Below are positions 1,909 through 42,050 of a DNA stretch of 64,000 bases, piece by piece. Both the position numbers and the translations under genes were made by a program. Source of the stretch: Eledone cirrhosa (lineage: Eukaryota); assembly GCA_964016885.1 (NCBI GenBank), contig CAXHJY010001125.1:1-64000 (forward strand). The letters run 5' to 3'. The notes under the pieces are model-generated. The model searched no databases, was not told the origin of the DNA, and saw only the letters and a list, made by a program, of their open reading frames with translations. Every line of letters begins with the position of its first letter. The stretch's first letter is position 1.

Positions 1909-1986
1909 TATTTTATCCGAGGAGGACATGTTTTGCTTTATGTTATACATAAAATTTTACATCTTCGAAATGTATATAATGAAATA
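1909..1986 (+). ncRNA. Degenerate minimal type I hammerhead motif (Penelope-like pLTR remnant)
   Basis: Helix I tattttat/atgaaata, core CCGAGGA (mutated CUGANGA), helix II base ggacatgt/acatcttc, GAAA, tgtat-ATA cleavage triplet. Confidence 0.5.
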
Positions 1987-2040
1987 AATAGAGATGATAT
2001 AAAGTATATATCGTTCGTTTATTACCATTATTATTACTCT

Positions 2041-2449
2041 TCGGTGATGCCCTGATTAACTTTTTCAAATTTCATTTGAAAAGGAAAATCAGGGTAGAGA
2101 GGAAAGTGCTCTCTTCCCAGCATTTTGTTGAAAGATGGGTGAGAGAAGCAAGTATGGCCCGAGTGAATGGGCCTACTCTGAGTATATGTCTGTAAATTAA
2201 AGGTGGAAAACTGGGAGAGGGCACTTGCCTTGGTGGTCAGGGTCACTGTGGTCTTTTAATGGGCTTTCTCCACAAATGTCCCTCGGAAGTCTCCCCCCTA
2301 TTGGGGAATTTTTCTTTGTTATTTTATTACATCCTCTGTTTTTTTACACGCAGAAATGACCATTTGTACCGTCCTGTATTGTCCTGTACTGTCCTTAATG
2401 TCTACTTTATGTAAACCCTTGTGGTTAATAAAGAAATCATTATTATTAT

Positions 2450-2450
<1 letters not shown>
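2041..2450 (+). mobile_element. 5'-truncated LINE 3' end (Tx1/L1-like ORF2 C-terminus plus 3'UTR)
   Basis: 2043-2195 translates GDALINFFKFHLKRKIRVERKVLSSQHFVERWVREASMARVNGPTLSICL*; AATAAA at 2427-2432; (ATT)n on both sides. Confidence 0.65.
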
Positions 2451-2489
<39 letters not shown>

Positions 2490-2491
<2 letters not shown>

Positions 2492-2590
2492 ATAGTTGAG
2501 ACAGTAAACAAAAAAAACAACAAAAAAAAAACAACGTAGAAGCGAAGAGACAGTACAGATGTTAATATTAGTTTCACGCTTGAGAGTGGT
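2490..2590 (-). mobile_element. 3' tail fragment of the Penelope-like pLTR seen at 11960-12045
   Basis: Reverse complement matches ccactctcaag..gtgaa.ctaatattaaca...tgtactg.ctcttcgct, ending in (TA)n. Confidence 0.6.
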
Positions 2591-2790
2591 ATGTATACAT
2601 ATCGAATTCTATCGATCGATTGGTTATTGATTAGGCGAAACCCGCTGATGAAGCCACTTGCGCCGATTATGTATTGTTGCATAATAAATGCAGCCAGAGG
2701 ATGCTGTGAACTCTATTGTGGCATTAAGTGTGGCCGGAACTTGTGTGTTGTGTGTGTAGAGGGTTAGAATCTCTCTCTCCTCCCTTATTT

Positions 2791-2878
<88 letters not shown>

Positions 2879-3051
2879 TCTTTGGAAGAACTCCGCTGTG
2901 TTCAGAATTGGAGAGGGAAGTCTCCGTCATGTTTCAAATGCGTTTAATCAAACGCCAGAGGTCGTGACTGTGCACTAACGACACCATCAAGAGTTATGTG
3001 CCCTTGGATTAATGGAATGGTTAACCCTAAAGAGAACACATTTAAAATATT

Positions 3052-3155
3052 TGTTTCTACTTTTGGCACAAGGCCAGCAATTATCCCAGTGCATTACTGG
3101 TACTTTATTTCATCGACTCCGTAAGGATGAAAGGCAAAGTTAACCTCGGTGGGAT
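3052..3155 (-). mobile_element. SINE family 1, 3' part
   Basis: Reverse complement of gaggttaactttgcctttcatccttacgg.gtcgat...gtaccagtaatgcactggg...ggccttgtgccaaaagtagaaac. Confidence 0.85.
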
Positions 3156-3558
3156 TACTATTAAAATATTAGAACATGGCAAGGAATCTCTCGATTGAAT
3201 GAATCATTAGAAGCCATTAAACTAAAATACTGTCACCCACAAGTTTTTGTAATTTTAATTTCTGATGTATAAGTAAAATTGTTGAGTGAATAATTATTAT
3301 TTGAAAAGCATGTTTTTGAAATTAAACGGATGCATCCATTATTATTTCCGGCCACATAAGTAGTGACCAACAGAGAAAACTAGTCGACTTCCGTTTAGCT
3401 ACTTAACATAATCATCGTTGTCTCTCTCCCCCCCCCCTCTCTCTCACACACACATATACACACATACACATACACACATACACATATTAGGATGGATAGA
3501 AAAAGAACCAGATTAGAGAGTACATGTATGCACACATTCATTCATATACACACATATG

Positions 3559-3635
<77 letters not shown>

Positions 3636-3728
3636 TATATATATATGTATATCTATCTCTCTCTATATATATATGTATACGTAAATGTATATTTATATAT
3701 GTATATGCATATATGTATATATGTATAC

Positions 3729-3784
<56 letters not shown>

Positions 3785-4382
3785 GCATGCATACCTACCT
3801 ACCTACATAAATACATAACTCAAAACATCCACATCCACATACACAATAACATCCATAGTTGCACACACATACACGCATGTAGACATGCATACATATCTAT
3901 CCAGTTGATCTTTAAATTCCAATGAAATAGTCTTGTATCTATGTTAGAAACCGACTCTCTTTCTCTCTATTGGTAAAAATTTATAGAATTATAAAACCAG
4001 AAGAACTTACATTCATTTACCAGCCATCAAACGTTAAAGTGTAAACATGGGTTAAGTTTACATACGCGTGACAAATGCTGGAAGAGATCGCCTCGGAAGG
4101 TATTTCTAGATTGGTGATCAGCAATACACAACCAAAGAAGTTAGACATCTCTATTGTAATAGAACATTAAATGATCATTGCCATGTTTTCAGAAAATCCC
4201 AAAGTGACAGCCACGTAACAATTGGTATATTAGCAACATTCTATTTAAAGGGTTTGCTTTTGTAATCCAGGTACAAAGAAAAAGGAAAGGGAGCGATCGT
4301 TAGATCGGATCAAGGAAACAATGTTTCCATTGATCTTTCCAGATATAATGATCTGGAACGGAGAAAAGAAAGTATGCGCTAT

Positions 4383-4570
4383 AGTACAGACCAGTTGTCC
4401 AACAGACCAGTATACAGACCAGTTGTCCTACAGACGTAAACAGACCAATATACAGACCAGTTGTCCTACAGACGTAAACAGACCAATATACAGACCAGTT
4501 GTCCTACAGACGTAAACAGACCAATATACAGACTAGTTGTCCTACAGACGATTATAGACCAGTTGTACAA
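4383..4570. repeat. 38-bp minisatellite (tacagaccagttgtcctacagacgtaaacagaccaata)
   Basis: About 5 units; a further partial unit at 4937-4960 lies beyond the CRE fragment. Confidence 0.85.
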
Positions 4571-4575
4571 ACCTG

Positions 4576-4865
4576 GTGCAGTCTGCGACTAACCCAGGTA
4601 CTGCTGCACGTCAGGCTGAGGAGGCCAAACTCTCCAAGTACCGGTCGCTCTCCGACAGGTTCGTGGTCGTGCCCTTGGCAGTGGAGACTTCTGGTGTCCT
4701 TGGTCCTAAGGCTACCTCCCTATTCACCGCCATAGGCACTGAGCTGGCCAGCCGCAGGTGTGAGCCTCACGAGTTGGAATGGCTCTTCCAGCGCATCTCC
4801 CTTACCATCCTGTCCGCCGGACTGTGGGGGAGGCCAACACGTAGGACCCCATTTGCTCACCATAC
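4576..4865 (+). mobile_element. CRE-type non-LTR retrotransposon 3' fragment (restriction-like endonuclease C-terminus)
   Basis: AARQAEEAKLSKYRSLSDRFVVVPLAVETSGVLGPKATSLFTAIGTELASRRCEPHELEWLFQRISL matches the K..KY / P.AVET.G..G / FQR.S pattern of CRE-clade elements; RGNA segment deleted. Confidence 0.8.
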
Positions 4866-5130
4866 GGATTAATAGACAAAGTTATAAACTATTGTAAATA
4901 AATCATTAGAAATTATGTCACTTGACCTTAAATACCGACCAGTTGTCCTACAGACGTAATGTTTAGATATAAGGAAAAATAAAAAAAATTATACAGAATT
5001 AATGAGAAATTTGTAAATATTCTACCCCTATTATAACGTTTGATTTATAGATGTAAATATTAGGGCAATTGATTATTTAAGTAACTACCGAAACCTCAAT
5101 CTTGAGGAACTGGGCTTCACAAAACCATTA

Positions 5131-5464
5131 AGGACACGACTACTTTAAAAAATCCAATGAAAGACCCATTAATGGAACTGTGAATATTTGTAAAGTATTC
5201 CAGAAGTTTAACCTTTATTAGGTGCCAAGTTGTTAGAACGTCGGATAAAATACTTTGTGATATTCCGGTTCTCTGTGTCCCGAATTCCGCCCAAGTCAAC
5301 TTTACATTTCATCCTTTCGTGGTCGATAAAAAAATACCAGTCAAATACTGGGGTTGACTCTTCCTTTTTATCTCATATTTCCTACGACTCCACCAGGAGT
5401 TAAGGGTTCATACAGAACAGGGATCTGCAACTTTCAGGTCTGGAACCCCATGTGTTTCTTCAAC
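5131..5464. repeat. Inverted duplicate of 23445-23778
   Basis: About 335 bp of high-identity reverse-complement match, including a diverged SINE core and non-SINE flanks. Confidence 0.9.
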
Positions 5465-5504
5465 GTTCTGATTTTCTTTCATTTATTATTTATATAAGAT
5501 CTGA

Positions 5505-5700
5505 GGGCGGTGGATTGGCTGTATCGGTAGAGGGTCGGACGCCATGCTTTGCAGCATAGAGTTACGTCCCTTTATGATCTAAGTTCAAATCTCGCCGAGG
5601 TTAACTTTGCCTTTCATGCTTACGGGGTCGATAAAATAAAGTACCAATCACGACTTTCCCCTCTCCCAAAATTGCTGGCCTTGTGTCTATATAAGAAACC
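5505..5700 (+). mobile_element. SINE family 1, near full length, with TSD
   Basis: tRNA-like head with B box gttcaaatc, central gcctttcat..ggggtcgataaa box; 19-bp TSD attattta(t/c)ataagatctg at 5485-5503 and 5701-5719. Confidence 0.9.
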
Positions 5701-5955
5701 ATTATTTACATAAGATCTGCAATCTTACATTAAAATAAAAAGCAACACATTTGACCTGGATATTGAAGTAATTTTAGATAAAACGCAAAGCCAAAAATCG
5801 AGTAAGAAAAATATTTGCTAAACACGTTTTCTTTTGTTTGTATGTTTGTAGTTTTGTTTATAATAAATAATATTATATATTTTTCTTCGTTAAAAATGGC
5901 CGTCAGATTAAAATGGTTCCCCTATCCTGACTATAAACATATAAACATATGTATA

Positions 5956-6002
<47 letters not shown>

Positions 6003-6010
6003 GTATACGT

Positions 6011-6054
<44 letters not shown>

Positions 6055-6060
6055 ACGTAC

Positions 6061-6095
<35 letters not shown>

Positions 6096-6284
6096 CATAA
6101 ACAGACAGATTCACTCAAGCAATCATATGGACGCTTGCAAACATACATATGTCTATAGATATATACATACATACATACATACATATATACATACATACAT
6201 AAGTACCAATGCAGGTACATATATGCATACGTACACGCATACAGACACATGTATGCAAAGAGACAGATAGAGATACCAACATAC

Positions 6285-7460
6285 GTACATACATCCATTT
6301 ACACATACATCCATACACACATCTATACACACATACACATACATCCATTTACACATACATCCATACATACATCTATACACACATACACATACATCCATTT
6401 ACACATACATCCATACACACATCTATACACACATACACATACATCCATTTACACATACATCCATACATACATCTATACACACATACACATACATCCATTT
6501 ACACATACATCCATACACACATCTATACACACATACACATACATCCATTTACACATACATCCATACACACATCTATACACACATACACATATATCCATTT
6601 ACACATACATCCATACACACATCTATACACACATACACATACATCCATTTACACATGCATCCATACACACATCTATACACACATACACATACATCCATTT
6701 ACACATACATCCATACACACATCTATACACACATACACATACATCCATTTACACATACATACATACACACATCTATACACACATACACATATATCCATTT
6801 ACACATACATCCATACACACATCTATACACACATACACATACATCCATTTACACATACATCCATACATACATCTATACACACATACACATACATCCATTT
6901 ACACATACATCCATACACACATACACATACATCCATTTACACATACATCCATGCATACATCTATACACACATACACATACATCCATTTACACATGCATCC
7001 ATACACACATCTATACACACATACACATACATCCATACATATTTCTATACACACATACACATACATCCATTTACACATACATCCATACATACATCTATAC
7101 ACACATACACATACATCCATTTACACATACATCCATACACACATCTATACACACATACACATACATCCATCGATCCAAATATACACATACATACATCCAT
7201 TTACACATACATCCATACACACATCTATACACACATACACATACACATACATCCATTTACACATACATCCATACACACATCTATACACACATACACATAC
7301 ATCCATCTATCGATCCAAATATACACATACATACATACATCCATTTACACATACATACATACACACATACATACAAACATCCATTTACACATACATACAT
7401 ACACACATCTATACACACATACACATACATCCATTTACACATACATACATACACACATCC
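6285..7460. repeat. 50-bp CA/TA-derived minisatellite
   Basis: Unit acacatacatccatacacacatctatacacacatacacatacatccattt, about 20 copies; source of the long His/Thr/Tyr/Ile ORFs. Confidence 0.9.
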
Positions 7461-8391
7461 ATCCAGACGTACCCGGCTGCTGTCTTCCAATGAAAGATCC
7501 ATCTTTATGGATGAGGAGACTGTTGTGTACTGGTGGGATATCTTAAGAAATATAACCAGAACACACACACACACACACACACATACATACAGATAGACAG
7601 ACATACACTCCCCTTCACACTAACATACATACAGACAGACACACACACACCCTCACATACATACATACATACATACATACATACAGATAGACAAACAGTC
7701 ACCCTCACACACACACACACACACTCACTCACCCTCATACATACATACACACACTCATCTACAGACACACACATACATACATTCATATACACACACACAC
7801 ACTCATCCACACACACACATACATTCATACACACACTCATCCACACACACACACACATACATATATACATACACACACACAGACACTCGCCCTTAGATAC
7901 ACACACACACACATCCACACATACACACACCCTCACACACACATACATATATACATACACACACACAGACAGTCGCCCTTACATACACACACCCTCACAC
8001 ACACATACATATATATATACACACACACACTCATCCACACACACACACACACATCCTCACACACATACATATATACATATACACACACACTCACCCTTAC
8101 ATACACACACATGATGATTAATACTTGCCAAAAGTTCCACAGGGTATCTGAATATATTTGTAGACAGCATGCCAACACTTGCTCTTCCCCCTCTCTCTCA
8201 CACCCTCTCTTCTCTCTCCCCCTCTCTCTTTCCCACTTCTTTCTCTTCTTCTCTCACTACTCTCTCTCTCTCACTCTCTCCCACCCTCTCTCTCTCTGTC
8301 TGAGAGAGGAACACGTATGAATAGATTCAAATATAAATGTTGTGTAAGTATGATAGAAGCTCATATAAACATAACTAGACAAACAAGAGCA

Positions 8392-8457
<66 letters not shown>

Positions 8458-8501
8458 CTGAGGGTGTGTGTGCTTATAACTACATATCTTAGGCATACAT
8501 A

Positions 8502-8544
<43 letters not shown>

Positions 8545-8790
8545 TGGGTAGGATGAAGGTGTATGGCTTTGAGGTAAGGGCATTCGACCCACGAAACAAA
8601 AGACAACACGGAGTTGCAGATTAAGACCAAATAGTCATTGAGGAGGTCACGGAATGAGTGACGAAAGAACTTTAACGAACAACTATAGTACTAAAGATAA
8701 AGTGTAAAAGTGAAGATCATAGGGTGCGTGTGTTTCTTTTTATTGGCAATACTGGTTACCTGATTATCCCCACAGCCAAATATATATATA

Positions 8791-8893
<103 letters not shown>

Positions 8894-8907
8894 TATATAT
8901 AATGTGA

Positions 8908-8967
8908 GAGATAAAATAAAGTACCAGTAATGCACTGGGGTAATTGCTGGCCTTGTGCCAAAAGTAG

Positions 8968-9001
<34 letters not shown>

Positions 9002-12130: not shown

Positions 12131-12332
12131 ATGTAGGAGGTGAGTTTTATTGTAGTACAATAAAGCAATGCAGATATCGGATAAGTAGCACTCTACAGTT
12201 TGTAGGAGTGGAGTATATATAATATATAAGATCAAAAGATTGTTAAAAGAGTTCCCATGTATTTTATTATGCGCATTTTGAAATGCGCATAATAAAATAC
12301 ATGGAACTCTTTTAACCATCTTTTGATCTTAT
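12131..12332 (+). mobile_element. (TA)n-embedded element family B with ~53-bp-arm palindrome (12226-12332)
   Basis: Both ends match the reverse complement of 16231-16585; fold-back centred just before GAAA-TGCGC-ATA. Confidence 0.75.
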
Positions 12333-12650: not shown

Positions 12651-13164
12651 ATATATATATATATATATACACCACACTAGAGTACATAAAATACTTTATT
12701 TGTGAAACCTGATATTATATCAGCTGCTAAGTGATGTTTTCTAAGATGTTTCAACTTCCGGTGTTTAAAGCGAGTCCTTAAATACTAATTAGTTGAGTTT
12801 CTAAGAGTTCTCCAGTGTTAGGATTTTGTCCAAAACATTAGTTATTTTACGACACGACAACATATTTCTCGTTTCACTTGTCCTTATATTTCATTAACAA
12901 AACAACTCATTTTAAAAGGTTCCAGTTCCCTCAACATAATTTTCTATAAAAATATTTTATGTTTAAAAAAAGAAAAAAAGTATCTTAATAAAGGTTTCAA
13001 TGCCCTCCGGTCCCAATAATTATATTTTTGGCCCCAAACCACCAAAATAATCATCTATTGATATGAGCAGCTGATGTGTATGTATGTGTGTGTTAACTTA
13101 AGATATGGTTGTCTAAATTACTCAATACATGAACTCTATAAATAATGAACACAACCACAAGGAT

Positions 13165-14080
13165 ATGGTCCGAACACAGAGAAGCCAAACTCCCACTGTC
13201 ATCGTCTCCATCTCTCTCGCCCTCCCCATCTCTACATACACCTGGTCCGAACACAGAGAAGCCAAACTCCCACTGTCATCGCCTCCATCTCTCTCGCCCT
13301 CCCCATCTCTACATACACCTGGTCCGAACACAGAGAAGCCAAACTCCCACTGTCATCGCCTCCATCTCTCTCGCCCTCCCCATCTCTACATACACCTGGT
13401 CCGAACACAGAGAAGCCAAACTCCCACTGTCATCGCCTCCATCTCTCTCGCCCTCCCCATCTCTACATACACCTGGTCCGAACACAGAGAAGCCAAACTC
13501 CCACTGTCATCGCTTCCATCTCTCTCACCCTCCCTATCTCTCACATACACCTGGTCCGAACCAGGAACAGCCGGACTACCACTGTCGTTGCCTCCATCTC
13601 TCTCGCCCTCCCTATCTCTCACATACACCTGGTCCGAACCAGGAACAGCCGGACTACCACTGTCATCGCCTCCATCTCTCTCGCCCTCCCTATCTCTCAC
13701 ATACACCTGGTCCGAACCTGGAACAGCCGGATTACCACTGTCATCGCCTCCATCTCTCTCGCTCTCCCTATCGCTCACTACACCTGGTCCGAACACAGAG
13801 AAGCCAAACTCCCACTGTCATCGCCTCCATCTCTCTCGCCCTCCCCATCTCTACATACACCTGGTCCGAACACAGAGAAGCCAAACTCCCACTGTCATCG
13901 CCTCCATCTCTCTCGCCCTCCCCATCTCTACATACACCTGGTCCGAACACAGAGAAGCCAAACTCCCACTGTCATCGCTTCCATCTCTCTCCCTATCTCT
14001 ACATACACCTGGTCCGAACCTAGAACAGCCGGACTACCACTGTCATCGCCTCCATCTCCCTCGCTCTCCCTATCTCTCTG
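13165..14080. repeat. 77-79-bp minisatellite with two unit variants
   Basis: About 12 copies of cctggtccgaacacagagaagccaaactcccactgtcatcgcctccatctctctcgccctccccatctctacataca; variant units carry ccaggaacagccggactaccac. Confidence 0.9.
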
Positions 14081-14082
14081 TT

Positions 14083-14150
14083 TGGTGAGCAAATGGGGTC
14101 CCACTTGCTGGCCTCCCCACAGCCCCGGCGGACAGAATGGAGTAGGCGTT
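14083..14150 (-). mobile_element. CRE-type element extreme 3' fragment
   Basis: Reverse complement matches 4805-4862 and 26920-26943 (ccattctgtccgcc...gaccccatttgctcacca). Confidence 0.75.
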
Positions 14151-14394
14151 TTTATATTTCGGTTGATATTTGATAATAACAGCTAAACTAATCACTACAA
14201 CTAAATTGACCAAATTTGCCCAATTCAGAAATGCTCCCACCGCCCCTGAAACACAGTGTATTTTAGTATAAATATGGCATCAAAAGGGTTAAGATTCAGA
14301 CAAAATGTTAAAGAATACAACCTGAAAGTGAAATGTCAACAAAACGAATTTAAAATAATACATGAGGATTTTCTTGGTTTGTAGAAAAACTTAC

Positions 14395-16135: not shown

Positions 16136-16230
16136 ATATATATAATATATATATAATATATATATAATATATATATAATATTTATATAATATATATATAT
16201 ATATATAATATATATATATATATATAATAT
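15041..16230. repeat. Compound (TA)n/(TACATA)n microsatellites with a SINE-like fragment at ~15715-15862
   Basis: Low-complexity tracts visible directly. Confidence 0.85.
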
Positions 16231-16583
16231 ATAAGATCAAAAGATGGTTAAAAGAGTTCCATGTATTTTATTATGCGCATTTCAAAAACAAATATCATCA
16301 TGCAATAACATTTGCGTTTTCGTCACATAAAATAGGGAGACATGATATGAAGGTTAAAACACACTTGTGGATAGTGCAGTTTTAAATCAACATATGAAAA
16401 GTAGTTTTAGATTGATGTGTGATATTGGGAAAACATTTTTGAGGGGGGTGGAGGTGGAAAGGATGAAAAAGAGGAGGAGATGAGAGTAAAAAGTGGAGGA
16501 GGAGGAGTATAATGAGAAAGGATGATATTTCTTATCCGATATCTGCATTGCTTTATTATACTACAATAAAACTCACCTCCTAC

Positions 16584-16827: not shown

Positions 16828-16846
16828 ATATATATATATATATATA

Positions 16847-17033
16847 AATGGAAGTTCAGGAGAATCGAAGCTGTGGTTGCGGCCATGCTAACGAATGCAA
16901 TCCGGAATGTGCAACTAAGCACTCAATGAGGTAGTTTTACCTTAGAGTAATAACATTACGTTTAGACAGCTTGACAAATTGAAGACTGCGACCGGTGAGC
17001 CAGCCGCAAGGACCAAAGCAACGAGAAAACCAA

Positions 17034-28504: not shown

Positions 28505-28624
28505 GTTTACGGCCATATCTCGTTGAAGAAACCGGTTCTCGTCCGATCACCGAAGTTAAGCAACGTCGAGCCTAATTAGTACTTAGATGGGTGACCGCTT
28601 GGGAACCCTAGGTGCTGTAAGTAT
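28505..28624 (+). rRNA. 5S rRNA gene or recent pseudogene, solitary copy
   Basis: gtttacggccatatc...ccggttctcgtccgatcaccgaagttaagcaacgtcgagcc...tagtacttagatgggtgaccgcttgggaa..ggtgctgtaag; 120 nt; terminal helix pairs; T4 at 28629-32. Confidence 0.92.
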
Positions 28625-38877: not shown

Positions 38878-39035
38878 TCCAGTCCAGAATTAGCCGTCGA
38901 AACGGCTTGAGCTCAGCCGTCGGGGTCCTACTCGTTCCTATTACCCACTCTACTACCCTAAGTATTGAGTACTTTGGTGCGTTATGGTCCACCTGGTTCC
39001 TTACCACACTTCCTTCGTTATATATATATATATAT

Positions 39036-39264: not shown

Positions 39265-39554
39265 CTAGCACCTATACACTAGTTAAACTTAACTCACATA
39301 AACCACTATACTAGCACCTATACACTAGTTACACTTAACTCACATAAACCACTATACTAGCACCTATACCCTAGTTAAACTTAACTCACATAAACCACTA
39401 TACTAACACCTATACCCTTGTCTAACCTTAACTCACAGAGACCACTATACTAGCACCCATACCCTTGTCTAACCTTATATATATATATAGAGAGAGAGAG
39501 AGATATATAGTGACGAAACATAAGTCAATTGCATGAACTCATAATCCTTTATTT

Positions 39555-39610
39555 ACTGCTATATATATTTCGATGATAGCCATTGTATGGCTATGACCTC
39601 ATCAGGCAGT
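39555..39610 (-). ncRNA. Minimal type I hammerhead ribozyme, core intact
   Basis: actgc-CTGATGA-ggtcatagcca-tacaa-tggctatcatc-GAAA-tatat-ATA-gcagt followed by AATAAA; element ~39488-39675 flanked by TA/GA repeats. Confidence 0.78.
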
Positions 39611-39676
39611 TAGTAAGTTCTTAGATATGCCAGCTCTGGGTTTTTGGTGTTGATGGTTTTAGAGCCTTGGGACATT

Positions 39677-39772
39677 ATATATATATATATATATATAGAT
39701 AGATATAGATATATATATATAGAGAGATATAGATATAGATATATAGATATAGATATATAGATATATAGATAT

Positions 39773-39821
<49 letters not shown>

Positions 39822-39862
39822 TATATATATATAGATATATAGATATAGATATATAGATATAT

Positions 39863-39905
<43 letters not shown>

Positions 39906-40635
39906 TATATATATATATAGATATATATATATCTATAGATATATATATATATATATATATAGATTATATATATCTATATATATATATATGCCATATTTCT
40001 AATATGGTATCCCTGAAATATGTATAATGAAATAAATATGGTTTTATAAATATAGTTTCCATTTGTTTAATATCGTATATCTACTCCAAAACTTGTTGAG
40101 TGCTTTATATCAGTTATAAAATATTTACTCGTTGTAACCCAACAATTTTAAATAAAACTTTTGCATATATATATCTATATATATATAGATTATATATATC
40201 TATATATATATATATCTATATATATATCTATATATATATATATCTATATATATATCTATATATATATAGATTATATATATCTATATCTATATATCTATAT
40301 ATATATAGATTATATATATCTATATCTATATATCTATATATATATAGATTATATATATCTATATCTATATATCTATATATATATAGATTATATATATCTA
40401 TATCTATATATCTATATATATATAGATTATATATATCTATATCTATATATCTATATATATATAGATTATATATATCTATATCTATATATCTATATATCTA
40501 TAGATTATATATATCTATATATATATATCTATATCTATATATATATATCTATATCTATATATATATATATCTATATCTATATATATATATCTATATCTAT
40601 ATATATATATATCTATATATCTATCTATATATCTA

Positions 40636-40718
<83 letters not shown>

Positions 40719-40814
40719 ATATATATATATATATATATATCTCTATATATATATATATATCTATATATATATATAATCTATATATATATATATATATATA
40801 TAATCTCTATAGAG

Positions 40815-40870
<56 letters not shown>
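39677..40870. repeat. (TA/TAGA/TATC)n compound microsatellite containing a 5'-truncated hammerhead-element piece (39990-40080)
   Basis: 39990-40080 resembles 41150-41240 (gaaata.gtataat.aaataa.tatggttttataaatata). Confidence 0.75.
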
Positions 40871-40872
<2 letters not shown>

Positions 40873-40880
40873 GTTTAGTA

Positions 40881-41062
40881 AAATGGAAGTTTCGGAGGTA
40901 GCCAAGCTAGCGACATACAATTAGGTTTGTGCAACAAAGCACTCAATAGGGTGTACCACCCTAGAGTAATTAACATACGTTAGACAGCGTAGCAAATTGA
41001 AAACTGCGGTAGGCGGGCCTAGTCACATAATACACCAAAACAACGACAACACCTCCAGGTTA
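40881..41062. mobile_element. Homolog of 16847-17037
   Basis: Colinear shared blocks. Confidence 0.65.
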
Positions 41063-41134
41063 TATATATCCTCACTGAACTTATAACATGAAGTTCACAT
41101 AAAGATATGTTACTATCTTTACACCAATTATTAC

Positions 41135-41193
41135 ATTTTATCTGACGAAAACATACTAAAATATTAGTAGCCTTGAAATACGTATAATAAAAT
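41135..41193 (+). ncRNA. Minimal type I hammerhead ribozyme, core intact
   Basis: attttat-CTGACGA-[tactaa/ttagta helix II]-GAAA-TACGT-ATA-ataaaat; 7-bp helix I, palindromic TACGTA helix III. Confidence 0.75.
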
Positions 41194-41244
41194 AATTATG
41201 GTTTTATAAATATATCTTCCATTTATTAATATTATATATATCTA

Positions 41245-41432
41245 GGCAGTGGATTGGCAGTATCGGTAGAGGGTCGGACGCCATGCTTTCCAGCATAGTT
41301 ACGTCCCTTTACAATCTGAGTTCAAATTCCCGCCGAGGTTGACTTTGCCCTTCATCCTTACGGGGTCGATAAAATAAAGTACCAGTAATGCACTGGGTAA
41401 TTGCTGGCCTTGTGCCTAAAGTAGAAACAATT
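41245..41432 (+). mobile_element. SINE family 1, full length
   Basis: Family-1 match; attaatattatatatat duplicated on both flanks. Confidence 0.9.
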
Positions 41433-42050
41433 AATATTATATATATATGATATAATCAGTTACAATTGCGACACACACACGCACACACACACACACACAG
41501 CGTATTATCATGGATGGTTAATATTTGAAAATCTGCACTCTGGCAGACTTGCAATATGGTGGACTATATTTTCAAATTTGAAATCCTTCTGTACTCCATA
41601 AGTTAACCAAACTTTGTTCACAATATATAATATAGAATACATAATAGGTAAAGTAATTAAACAAGTAATATTTTAAGTCGCTGACAATACACCAATTCGT
41701 GACTCGTACACAATGATAACTCCAATTTATAATGAATAGTTGCACTAGGTTGTTTTGTCACACACGAACGCTAGATTATATAATGCTATTGAACATATGG
41801 GAAAGAAATCACGTTTTATTCAACATTTCAAATAATACACGGTTTTATTTAAATATCTTCAATAAAACAATGTCTTATTTAAGGTATTTAAGAGTGCATA
41901 TTGCCACAATTTTTCCCATTAACTATTTGTCCTCGTAACGTTTTTCCAATGACCTTTATTCCACCCCTATAGTTATTACAAAGCTTCCGTTACAGTTCGG
42001 GGATTGGAGGGGCTTAACTATATATACTGTACATGTGTATTATTATTAAG

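What the first reader, a model, noticed from the sequence alone, without database searches (positions are those of the whole stretch)
41135..41193. Second intact hammerhead from an unrelated family, with decayed relatives
Seen: attttat/ataaaat helix I, CUGACGA, a helix II hairpin with an imperfect base, GAAA, palindromic TACGTA and an AUA site. Relatives occur at 1909-1986 (core mutated to CCGAGGA, different helix II) and 39990-40080 (truncated inside helix II). Helix II sequences differ while a hairpin is kept, which suggests structural selection during family evolution.
Basis: partly seen in the sequence, partly recalled or inferred. Interest (0 to 1): 0.7.

Follow-up and report, generated by a model that had tools for sequence, protein, structure and literature searches.

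The report
Hammerhead variant at Penelope retrotransposon end
This is the broken-off end of a Penelope-type jumping gene carrying a predicted self-cutting hammerhead RNA; this copy has partly decayed, but over 100,000 related motifs in the genome share an unusual fixed mismatch and a palindrome that likely lets them cut as pairs.

Summary
The motif is real: a type-I hammerhead core with an AUA site at 41135-41193. It is the 3' end of a 5'-truncated Penelope-like retrotransposon (41067-~41235). Longer genomic copies carry RT plus C-terminal GIY-YIG with Hydra-clade motifs.

'Intact' is only half true. The core is perfect, but three helix II substitutions break two G-C pairs (-0.5 vs -6.7 kcal/mol in an undecayed copy). 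'Unrelated' is wrong: the 39605 hammerhead shares the architecture and tail, and its family's RT is 53% identical.

New here: 112,785 such motifs in the 3.0-Gb genome (reversed control 544). Of these, 94% have a C opposite C/U at helix II position 4, never paired (0/86) while neighbouring pairs covary. The helix III loop stays palindromic across families, which supports dimer cleavage. Both 3' ends sit just before a bulged hairpin; the scan had already noted this on other DNA of this genome (e1-8673755).

Hammerheads in Hydra elements, including an octopus family, are published (PMC8557442). Cleavage is untested, and I could not read the key variant paper (Lunse 2017). Verdict: new variant of a known kind.

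The parts
41067..41235 (+). 5'-truncated copy of the 3' end (pLTR) of a Penelope-like element, ending at the 'short' 3' end about 49 nt after the predicted cut; short TA runs on both sides (3' edge fuzzy to 41244)
41076..41121 (+). two predicted hairpins upstream of the hammerhead (41076-41097, 41100-41121); role unknown
41135..41141 (+). helix I, 5' strand
41142..41148 (+). catalytic core CUGACGA (C3-A9), intact
41149..41174 (+). helix II. Family layout is 3 bp + C.C + 7 bp + tetraloop; here the two G-C pairs flanking the conserved C41152.C41171 mismatch are broken by A41151, A41153 and G41170
41175..41178 (+). core GAAA (G12-A15.1)
41178..41185 (+). 8-nt palindromic helix III; 2 bp + tetraloop as a monomer, 8 bp in a dimer (duplex -6.5 kcal/mol)
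41184..41186 (+). AUA triplet; predicted cut between 41186 and 41187
41187..41193 (+). helix I, 3' strand
39990..40165 (+). sister-subfamily copy truncated inside helix II (no CUGANGA), with the long tail; bulged tail hairpin at 40083-40104
39510..39676 (-). copy of the 'first' hammerhead family (core 39605-39599), same architecture, undecayed helix II; a related PLE family, not an unrelated one
1909..1990 (+). decayed relative, core U4 changed to C, helix II still 3 bp + C.C + stem
16215..16345 (-). another related-family copy, core C3 changed to G, C.U at helix II position 4

Best explanation
The motif is the hammerhead at the 3' end of a 5'-truncated copy of a Penelope-like retrotransposon, most likely of the Hydra clade, and this copy is probably a weak or dead ribozyme because its helix II has decayed. 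SHOWN: in full elements the hammerhead lies about 1.2-1.3 kb after the ORF stop and, in tandem units, about 200 nt before the next start codon; copies end about 45-59 or 140-150 nt past the predicted cut and sit in (TA)n; the lineage fixes an AUA site, a palindromic helix III and an unpaired C.Y at helix II position 4. INFERRED: a transcript that runs through two same-strand hammerheads would pair their palindromes into a dimer and cut after AUA, which would set the RNA ends of a unit-length element. The element's RT would bind the bulged tail hairpin and start cDNA a few nucleotides 5' of it, on uncleaved or re-ligated RNA, since inserted copies span the cut site. Early stops would give solo ends like this one, which then decay neutrally. 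The C.Y mismatch is likely a structural or protein-contact determinant; its partner is unidentified.
For: Family: 45 matches from 40 scored of 1,416 candidates, mostly 91-94% identical; 308 strict-pattern copies, control 0. ORF link: L034 has an RT/EN ORF ending near 6860 and this family's hammerhead at 8051 on the same strand; L002 has the EN C-terminus followed by the shared 3' UTR; L147, a sister family, is a pLTR-ORF-pLTR unit with 98% identical repeats, hammerheads 3.94 kb apart and a 775-aa open stretch. Clade motifs: DKT, CxCX5C, CxxC..E and N..CxH present, GxKF/Y and CX2-5CxxC absent, matching the Hydra definition (PMC8557442 section 11). Ends: 44/67 alignments end at +40-59 and 17/67 at +140-150. 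Dimer: the inner loop pair, impossible in a monomer, is complementary in 18/19 clusters (UA, AU, CG, UG; 0/2000 shuffles reach this) and the outer pair in 17/19. C.Y: 105,744 of 112,785 matches genome-wide, control 40; 0/86 paired while pairs 2 and 3 are 85/86 paired. AUA and U15.2-A16.2: relaxing them raises the count only to 112,380, control 2,611. Second hairpin predicted, then found right after the long end.
Against: No cleavage or expression data. Rfam has no hit. In the only PLE tested in vitro, hammerhead mutants did not affect insertion and no RNA-seq read ended at the cut site (PMC11167929). Clusters are related, so the shuffle numbers are not probabilities, and at 10 clusters the inner-loop signal weakens to 79/2000. 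The 86-sequence sample comes only from the first 5 Mb of contig C1. Hydra membership rests on motifs, not on a tree; the RWK motif reads RWI, RWC or RWR here, and the L147 unit (3.94 kb) is longer than the '<3 kb' typical of Hydra. End positions are blurred by TA overrun: 55/93 short ends lie 0-12 nt before the hairpin, the rest at -1, 13 or 16; 7/13 long ends lie 0-12 nt before hairpin 2, and for 5 of the 6 misses the regex misplaced the hairpin in L147.
Confidence: 0.8

Rival explanations
1. The hammerhead fold is kept by these elements but cleavage is not a needed step of transposition. It acts as a protein-assisted or conditional ribozyme, or mainly as a binding or folding element.
For: PAc hammerhead mutants insert normally and the ribozyme cuts only with protein (PMC11167929). 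Low in vitro activity of metazoan PLE hammerheads (PMC4209133). All copies here span the cut site.
Against: Core, AUA and palindrome are conserved across families whose RTs are 53-75% identical, which is what catalysis in a dimer would require.
Confidence: 0.3
2. The window copy is itself an intact, active ribozyme kept by selection at this locus.
For: Perfect core and 7-bp helix I. A same-strand partner palindrome lies 1.15 kb upstream at 40018-40025 and could pair (duplex -4.7 kcal/mol). One public contig holds 41135-41195 without a difference (X2 record 9; possibly the same sample).
Against: Three substitutions break helix II: -0.5 vs -6.7 kcal/mol, active monomer +2.8 vs -4.7. The copy is 89-94% identical to the others, as expected from neutral decay. 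No exon-like ORF was seen in the window.
Confidence: 0.08
3. The 170-bp unit is a discrete non-autonomous element (retrozyme or SINE-like) and not a truncation product.
For: Most copies are short; one related family shows no ORF within 1.5 kb after its tail. Animal retrozymes derive from pLTRs (bioRxiv 10.64898/2026.07.22.740005).
Against: 5' ends of this family vary continuously from about 100 nt to over 1 kb and run into the ORF. No head-to-tail 170-400-nt arrays were seen in 30 loci.
Confidence: 0.05
4. The two 3' ends are set at the DNA level, by the endonuclease cutting next to the hairpin motif in an existing copy, and not by RNA-level RT initiation.
For: L152 and L044 begin right at a hairpin after a TA run. 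The D. virilis endonuclease needs the tail for recognition (as cited in PMC11167929).
Against: The hairpin stem covaries (inner pairs A-U 25 / G-C 13; G-C 18 / U-A 8 / A-U 5 of 41 unique sequences), which suits a single-stranded RNA structure. PAc ends match RT start sites in vitro.
Confidence: 0.15

Closest known systems
Hydra-clade Penelope-like elements, including Hydra-1_Obim (Craig et al. 2021, PMC8557442; section 11, passages, supplement files S1/S2 and sequence excerpts seen)
   Same: C-terminal GIY-YIG, DKT, CxCX5C, CxxC and CxH around E and N, (TA)n insertion, hammerhead near the 3' end. By eye the Hydra-1_Obim protein excerpt matches L147 motif by motif, and the same bulged tail hairpin is readable in Hydra-2_Amil and Hydra-1_Ajap.
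   Different: None of the 26 Hydra hammerhead rows in file S2 (read by eye) shows 3 bp + C.Y + stem in helix II or the 8-nt palindrome with AUA. The 3' UTR is about 1.2 kb. RW is followed by I, C or R, not K. The paper reports 'a small number' of families, whereas the RT search here had 25,027 candidates.
Metazoan PLE hammerheads with small palindromic helix III (Cervera & de la Pena 2014, PMC4209133, parts 1-2 of 4 read; Lunse et al. 2017 not readable, known only through PMC6765202 passages)
   Same: Type I, in pLTRs, weak palindromic helix III predicted to work as a dimer, long helix II, many divergent families per genome, mostly solo copies.
   Different: No extra nucleotide between 9 and 10.1. 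G10.1-C11.1 is rare (7/86; A-U 45, U.U 17, G-U 13). Invariant C.Y at position 4. About 113,000 motifs against the 2,000-9,000 per genome given in that paper.
Poseidon_Ac tail and internal RT initiation (Frangieh et al. 2024, PMC11167929, parts 1-2 of 4 read)
   Same: Two 3' ends downstream of the hammerhead separated by an optional tail; AT-rich targets; copies span the cut site.
   Different: The tail is about 90 nt rather than 30-40 and lies in the 5' UTR, not the ORF. Each end is followed by a copy of one bulged hairpin.
Non-LTR retrozymes, e.g. axolotl with 126,247 type-I hammerheads (PMC7229834, passages)
   Same: Very high hammerhead copy number, dimer-type helix III.
   Different: Dispersed ends of coding PLEs rather than short tandem arrays. 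Density is one per 27 kb, roughly ten times the axolotl figure if that genome is about 32 Gb (size recalled).

Membership tests
Hammerhead ribozyme, type I | Core C3 U4 G5 A6 N7 G8 A9, G12 A13 A14 A15, U16 H17 (definition in PMC3088659) | tested here: met
   41142-41148, 41175-41178, 41185-41186
Hammerhead ribozyme, type I | Core-adjacent pairs 1.1-2.1, 10.1-11.1, 15.1-16.1 | tested here: met
   U41141-A41187, A41149-U41174, A41178-U41185
Hammerhead ribozyme, type I | Stable helix II without multiple mispairs (window copy) | tested here: not met
   Three consecutive mismatches, -0.5 kcal/mol; undecayed copy L009 has one mismatch, -6.7
Hammerhead ribozyme, type I | Helices supported by covariation (lineage level) | tested here: met
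   19 clusters: II.3 19/19, II.8 19/19, II.9 17/19, I.4 18/19, each 0/2000 shuffles; relatedness not controlled
Hammerhead ribozyme, type I | Match to an Rfam hammerhead model | tested here: not met
Hammerhead ribozyme, type I | Site-specific self-cleavage | not testable with these tools
   Needs an assay
Metazoan PLE hammerhead (Cervera 2014) | In the pLTR of a PLE | tested here: met
   L034, L147
Metazoan PLE hammerhead (Cervera 2014) | Palindromic 15.2-16.2 and loop 3 | tested here: met
   60/86 strict palindromes, 81/86 allowing G-U
Metazoan PLE hammerhead (Cervera 2014) | Extra nucleotide between 9 and 10.1 and conserved G10.1-C11.1 | tested here: not met
   First pair A-U 45, U.U 17, G-U 13, G-C 7, other 4 of 86; no insert
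Hydra clade PLE (Craig 2021) | Single ORF, RT followed by C-terminal GIY-YIG | tested here: met
   L147, L044, L048, L034; Pfam scan gave 0 families, so this rests on motifs
Hydra clade PLE (Craig 2021) | DKT motif; GxKF/Y absent | tested here: met
   L147, L044
Hydra clade PLE (Craig 2021) | RWK motif | tested here: inconclusive
   RW present at the right place but followed by I, C or R
Hydra clade PLE (Craig 2021) | CxCX5C linker in place of CX2-5CxxC; CxxC and CxH beside E and N | tested here: met
   CxCX5C 4/4; CxxC..E 3/4 and N..CxH 2/4, misses being ORFs that end or shift frame earlier
Hydra clade PLE (Craig 2021) | CCHH motif absent from the endonuclease | not tested
Hydra clade PLE (Craig 2021) | Insertion into (TA)n | tested here: met
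Hydra clade PLE (Craig 2021) | RT phylogeny groups with Hydra | not tested
   Published sequences were only read by eye; nearest database proteins are unnamed, 32-40% identical
Non-LTR retrozyme | Non-coding tandem repeats of 170-400 nt, each with a hammerhead | tested here: not met
   Dispersed, variably truncated, contiguous with an ORF

The most novel reading that the evidence does not exclude
This lineage carries an undescribed hammerhead subtype in which an invariant C.Y mismatch in helix II replaces the usual loop-loop contact or docks the element's own RT protein. With about 110,000 motifs (one per 27 kb) whose AU-rich palindromes cross-pair between families, the genome would hold the densest ribozyme load reported, able to form mixed dimers within long host transcripts and cut them.
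Probability: 0.2. Interest if true: 0.7.

Novelty: new variant of a known kind. Interest (0 to 1): 0.4.

Why it matters
The role of hammerheads in Penelope-like elements, relatives of telomerase, is open (PMC8557442 passage; PMC11167929). This lineage offers natural variants for direct tests: an invariant mismatch flanked by covarying pairs, at least four interchangeable palindromes that predict which families can dimerise, and twin hairpins that predict the RT start sites. The motif count also means a large, Rfam-invisible ribozyme load in one animal genome. The single locus that was flagged is an ordinary decaying repeat copy.

Tried and rejected
Rfam: only 5S rRNA at gathering threshold; no hammerhead at E<=10. 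Single-sequence folding was not significant. Pfam: 0 families for 4 ORFs. I first suspected the Naiad clade from memory and rejected it: Naiads have an N-terminal endonuclease and lack canonical hammerheads. The endonuclease upstream of the 39605-type hammerhead in L108 belongs to another PLE family and was dropped as evidence. Upstream walking of that family failed; the link came from the tail, and L152 itself lacks the hammerhead, so the link runs through tail identity with L090/L106. No conserved partner for the invariant C was evident in the helix I flanks. Metagenome scan: 91 matches, 0 structured, 0 RT hits; that collection holds little animal DNA, so this says nothing about other animals. 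Sequencing runs: no RNA holder listed; three contig sets from one sample give no end or strand information. The end-mapping script failed for several families and was redone. Literature: 'octopus' + 'hammerhead ribozyme' gave 5 papers, none on this motif by listing; 'hammerhead ribozyme' + 'C-C mismatch' + 'stem II' gave 0. Lunse et al. 2017 is not held, and the figures and supplements of Cervera 2014 and the bioRxiv supplements were not seen; any of them may show this variant.

Full report
OBSERVATION. The sequence at 41135-41193 reads as a type-I hammerhead: helix I 41135-41141/41187-41193, CUGACGA 41142-41148, helix II 41149-41174, GAAA 41175-41178, palindrome 41178-41185, AUA 41184-41186. 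A strict scan of the window found only this motif and the one at 39605 on the minus strand; a relaxed scan added remnants at 1909, 12278, 16285 (-) and 40013. Rfam finds no hammerhead and the lone sequence folds no better than shuffles (z -1.39), so the case rests on the copies.

THE FAMILY. The window lies in a 3.0-Gb assembly of 1,796 contigs. The host looks like an animal; an octopod is my guess from recalled repeat types and was not tested. A DNA search with 41100-41240 had 1,416 candidates; 40 were scored and gave 45 matches, mostly at 91-94%. A strict helix II pattern gives 308 copies, control 0. The window copy spans 41067 to about 41235 between short TA runs, followed by a 200-bp SINE-like repeat. 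Against 28 copies it differs at 41134, 41151, 41153, 41170 and 41196. Three of these break the G-C pairs on both sides of the central C.C, and helix II goes from -6.7 (copy L009) to -0.5 kcal/mol. One public contig holds the window version of 41135-41195 unchanged, which argues against an assembly error, though it may be the same sample. The core is intact; the helix is not.

THE ELEMENT. Longer copies share over 1 kb upstream and run into an endonuclease C-terminus (L002). L034 has RT and GIY-YIG frames ending near 6860 and this family's hammerhead at 8051 on the same strand. L017, L018, L031 and L033 show the inverted arrangement typical of PLEs. L147, a sister family, is a complete pLTR-ORF-pLTR unit: 387+ bp repeats 98% identical, hammerheads 3.94 kb apart, start codon about 215 nt after the first predicted cut, a 775-aa open stretch. 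The RT query had 25,027 candidates, 150 scored. Motifs DKT, CxCX5C, CxxC..E and N..CxH are present and GxKF/Y and CX2-5CxxC are absent. This matches the Hydra clade as defined in PMC8557442 section 11, whose supplement lists an octopus family with a differently built hammerhead. Its protein excerpt matches L147 by eye. No tree was built, and RWK reads RWI, RWC or RWR here.

THE HAMMERHEAD SUBTYPE. A pattern that fixes only the core, U15.2, A16.2 and AUA has 57,019 + 55,766 = 112,785 matches, reversed control 544. These are pattern matches; helices were checked only in a sample. I fetched 97 of the first 100 listed matches (first 5 Mb of C1); they gave 86 unique sequences. Helix II pair 2 is paired in 85/86, pair 3 in 85/86 (G-C 35, U-A 26, A-U 22, G-U 2), pair 4 in 0/86 (C.C 65, C.U 20, U.C 1), pair 5 in 79/86, pair 6 in 83/86. 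The pattern did not specify position 4. Adding C and Y there keeps 105,744 matches (93.8%), control 40. Relaxing 15.2, 16.2 and 17 gives 112,380, control 2,611, so about 96% use U-A and AUA. After dropping the one non-family hit (L055) and taking one medoid per cluster (19 clusters at 85%), pairs II.3, II.6-II.9 and I.4 exceed all 2,000 shuffles and position 4 is C.Y in 19/19. The two loop III positions are complementary in 17/19 and 18/19. The inner pair cannot form in a monomer, so its covariation points to dimers, as described for PLE hammerheads (PMC4209133; PMC6765202). The clusters are kin, and with 10 clusters that signal weakens (79/2000). As a control, 0 of 91 metagenome matches to a tighter pattern had both helices.

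THE 'UNRELATED' CLAIM. The 39605 family (43 matches from 40 scored of 514 candidates, mostly 96-99%) has 3 bp + C.C + 7 bp, AUA, a palindrome and a short end at about +53. Its long copies carry the same tail hairpin. In L152 that tail runs into an ORF whose RT is 53% identical to the L034 RT over 214 aa; L152 itself lacks the hammerhead. The two are distant relatives. The 1909, 16333 and 39990 remnants fit the same layout as far as they extend.

ENDS AND TAIL. Of 67 alignments, 44 end 40-59 nt and 17 end 140-150 nt after the predicted cut, mostly before (TA)n. This is the PLE tail signature (PMC11167929). The tail begins with a bulged hairpin (RCTC-stem-TN-GAGY-RCT) seen in 41 unique sequences; inner pairs not fixed by the search are paired in 39, 40 and 37 of 41, with A-U/G-C/U-A swaps. 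I predicted a second copy after the long end and searched with patterns that asked only for two strong bases. It appeared in the 39605 family (1 of 2 loci), this family (1 of 11) and the TATC family (21 of 22), the misses being unrelated junctions, and in L050 and L147. All 93 short ends map between -1 and +16 nt of hairpin 1, 55 of them within 0-12; long ends 7/13 within 0-12. The motif is readable by eye in the published Hydra-2_Amil and Hydra-1_Ajap sequences. After finding this I looked up the scan's notes: the twin hairpin was already noted on another piece of this genome (e1-8673755). I found no note on the C.Y mismatch.

MECHANISM. Shown: position, architecture, ends, conservation. Inferred: dimer cleavage of tandem transcripts after AUA, setting the RNA ends; hairpin-guided internal RT start on uncleaved or re-ligated RNA; early termination giving solo ends that decay. 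Against a needed role for cleavage: PAc hammerhead mutants insert normally and no reads ended at the cut. The window copy is a single decayed end and probably inactive, though a compatible partner palindrome lies at 40018-40025.

NOVELTY. Hammerheads in PLE pLTRs, dimer-type palindromes, Hydra elements in octopus and Penelope expansions in octopus (PMC13282606 and PMC8967140, passages) are known. I did not find the fixed C.Y mismatch or a count of this size for PLE hammerheads in the searches. The axolotl has 126,247 retrozyme hammerheads (PMC7229834, passages). Lunse et al. 2017, the paper most likely to list such a variant, was not available, and the Cervera 2014 figures and supplements were not seen. 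Papers seen: PMC4209133 parts 1-2 of 4; PMC8557442 passages, section 11, supplement part 2 and search hits; PMC11167929 parts 1-2 of 4; passages only of PMC6765202, PMC7229834, PMC3088659, PMC13282606, PMC8967140 and bioRxiv 10.64898/2026.07.22.740005.

VERDICT. A real but partly decayed hammerhead in a PLE end; new variant of a known kind; interest 0.4.

Noticed in passing
window 12205-12330: Fold-back (inverted) pair of 3' ends of the 16333-type family, centred at the helix II / GAAA junction, so only half a hammerhead is kept; resembles note e1-9525717.
   Followed up: partly
window 40870-41060 (-) and 16830-17030 (-): Another repeat family (75% identical pair) carrying the same bulged tail hairpin (40967-40938, 16948-16918) but no hammerhead in these copies; the first lies head-to-head with the finding.
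   Followed up: partly
window 38947-38973, 46901-46875, 21729-21345, 12533-12507; L014, L108: A GC-richer PLE family (endonuclease 28-33% identical to L034) whose short fold-back ends also carry a version of the tail hairpin; its hammerhead was not identified.
   Followed up: partly
L170-L198 (TATC..CATT subfamily): After the second hairpin this hammerhead family shows no Hydra ORF within 1.5 kb in 21 loci; it may be a non-autonomous derivative. It has U.U at the base of helix II and a longer insert in hairpin 1.
   Followed up: partly
window 41241-41440 and over 20 other places: About 200-bp SINE-like repeat, 76-97% identical copies; also inserted inside the PLE ORF in L034 and into PLE ends in L028, L029 and L107.
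   Followed up: no
window 28505-28623: 5S rRNA match (105 bits) lying between pieces of the SINE-like repeat; possibly a dispersed pseudogene.
   Followed up: no
L152, L044: Two ORF-bearing copies begin exactly at a tail hairpin after a TA run, so the sites of the 3' ends also appear as 5' junctions.
   Followed up: no
window 39677-39989 and 40166-40815: Long TA-rich microsatellites separate three PLE ends of different families within 1.7 kb, a nested insertion hotspot.
   Followed up: no
window 13149-14183: Tandem repeat giving a 345-codon repetitive open frame; not examined.
   Followed up: no
L035 7366 (+): A different small hammerhead (short helix II with G-C base, 4-nt palindrome, AUU-type site absent; U at 17) showing that other PLE hammerhead types coexist in the genome.
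   Followed up: no
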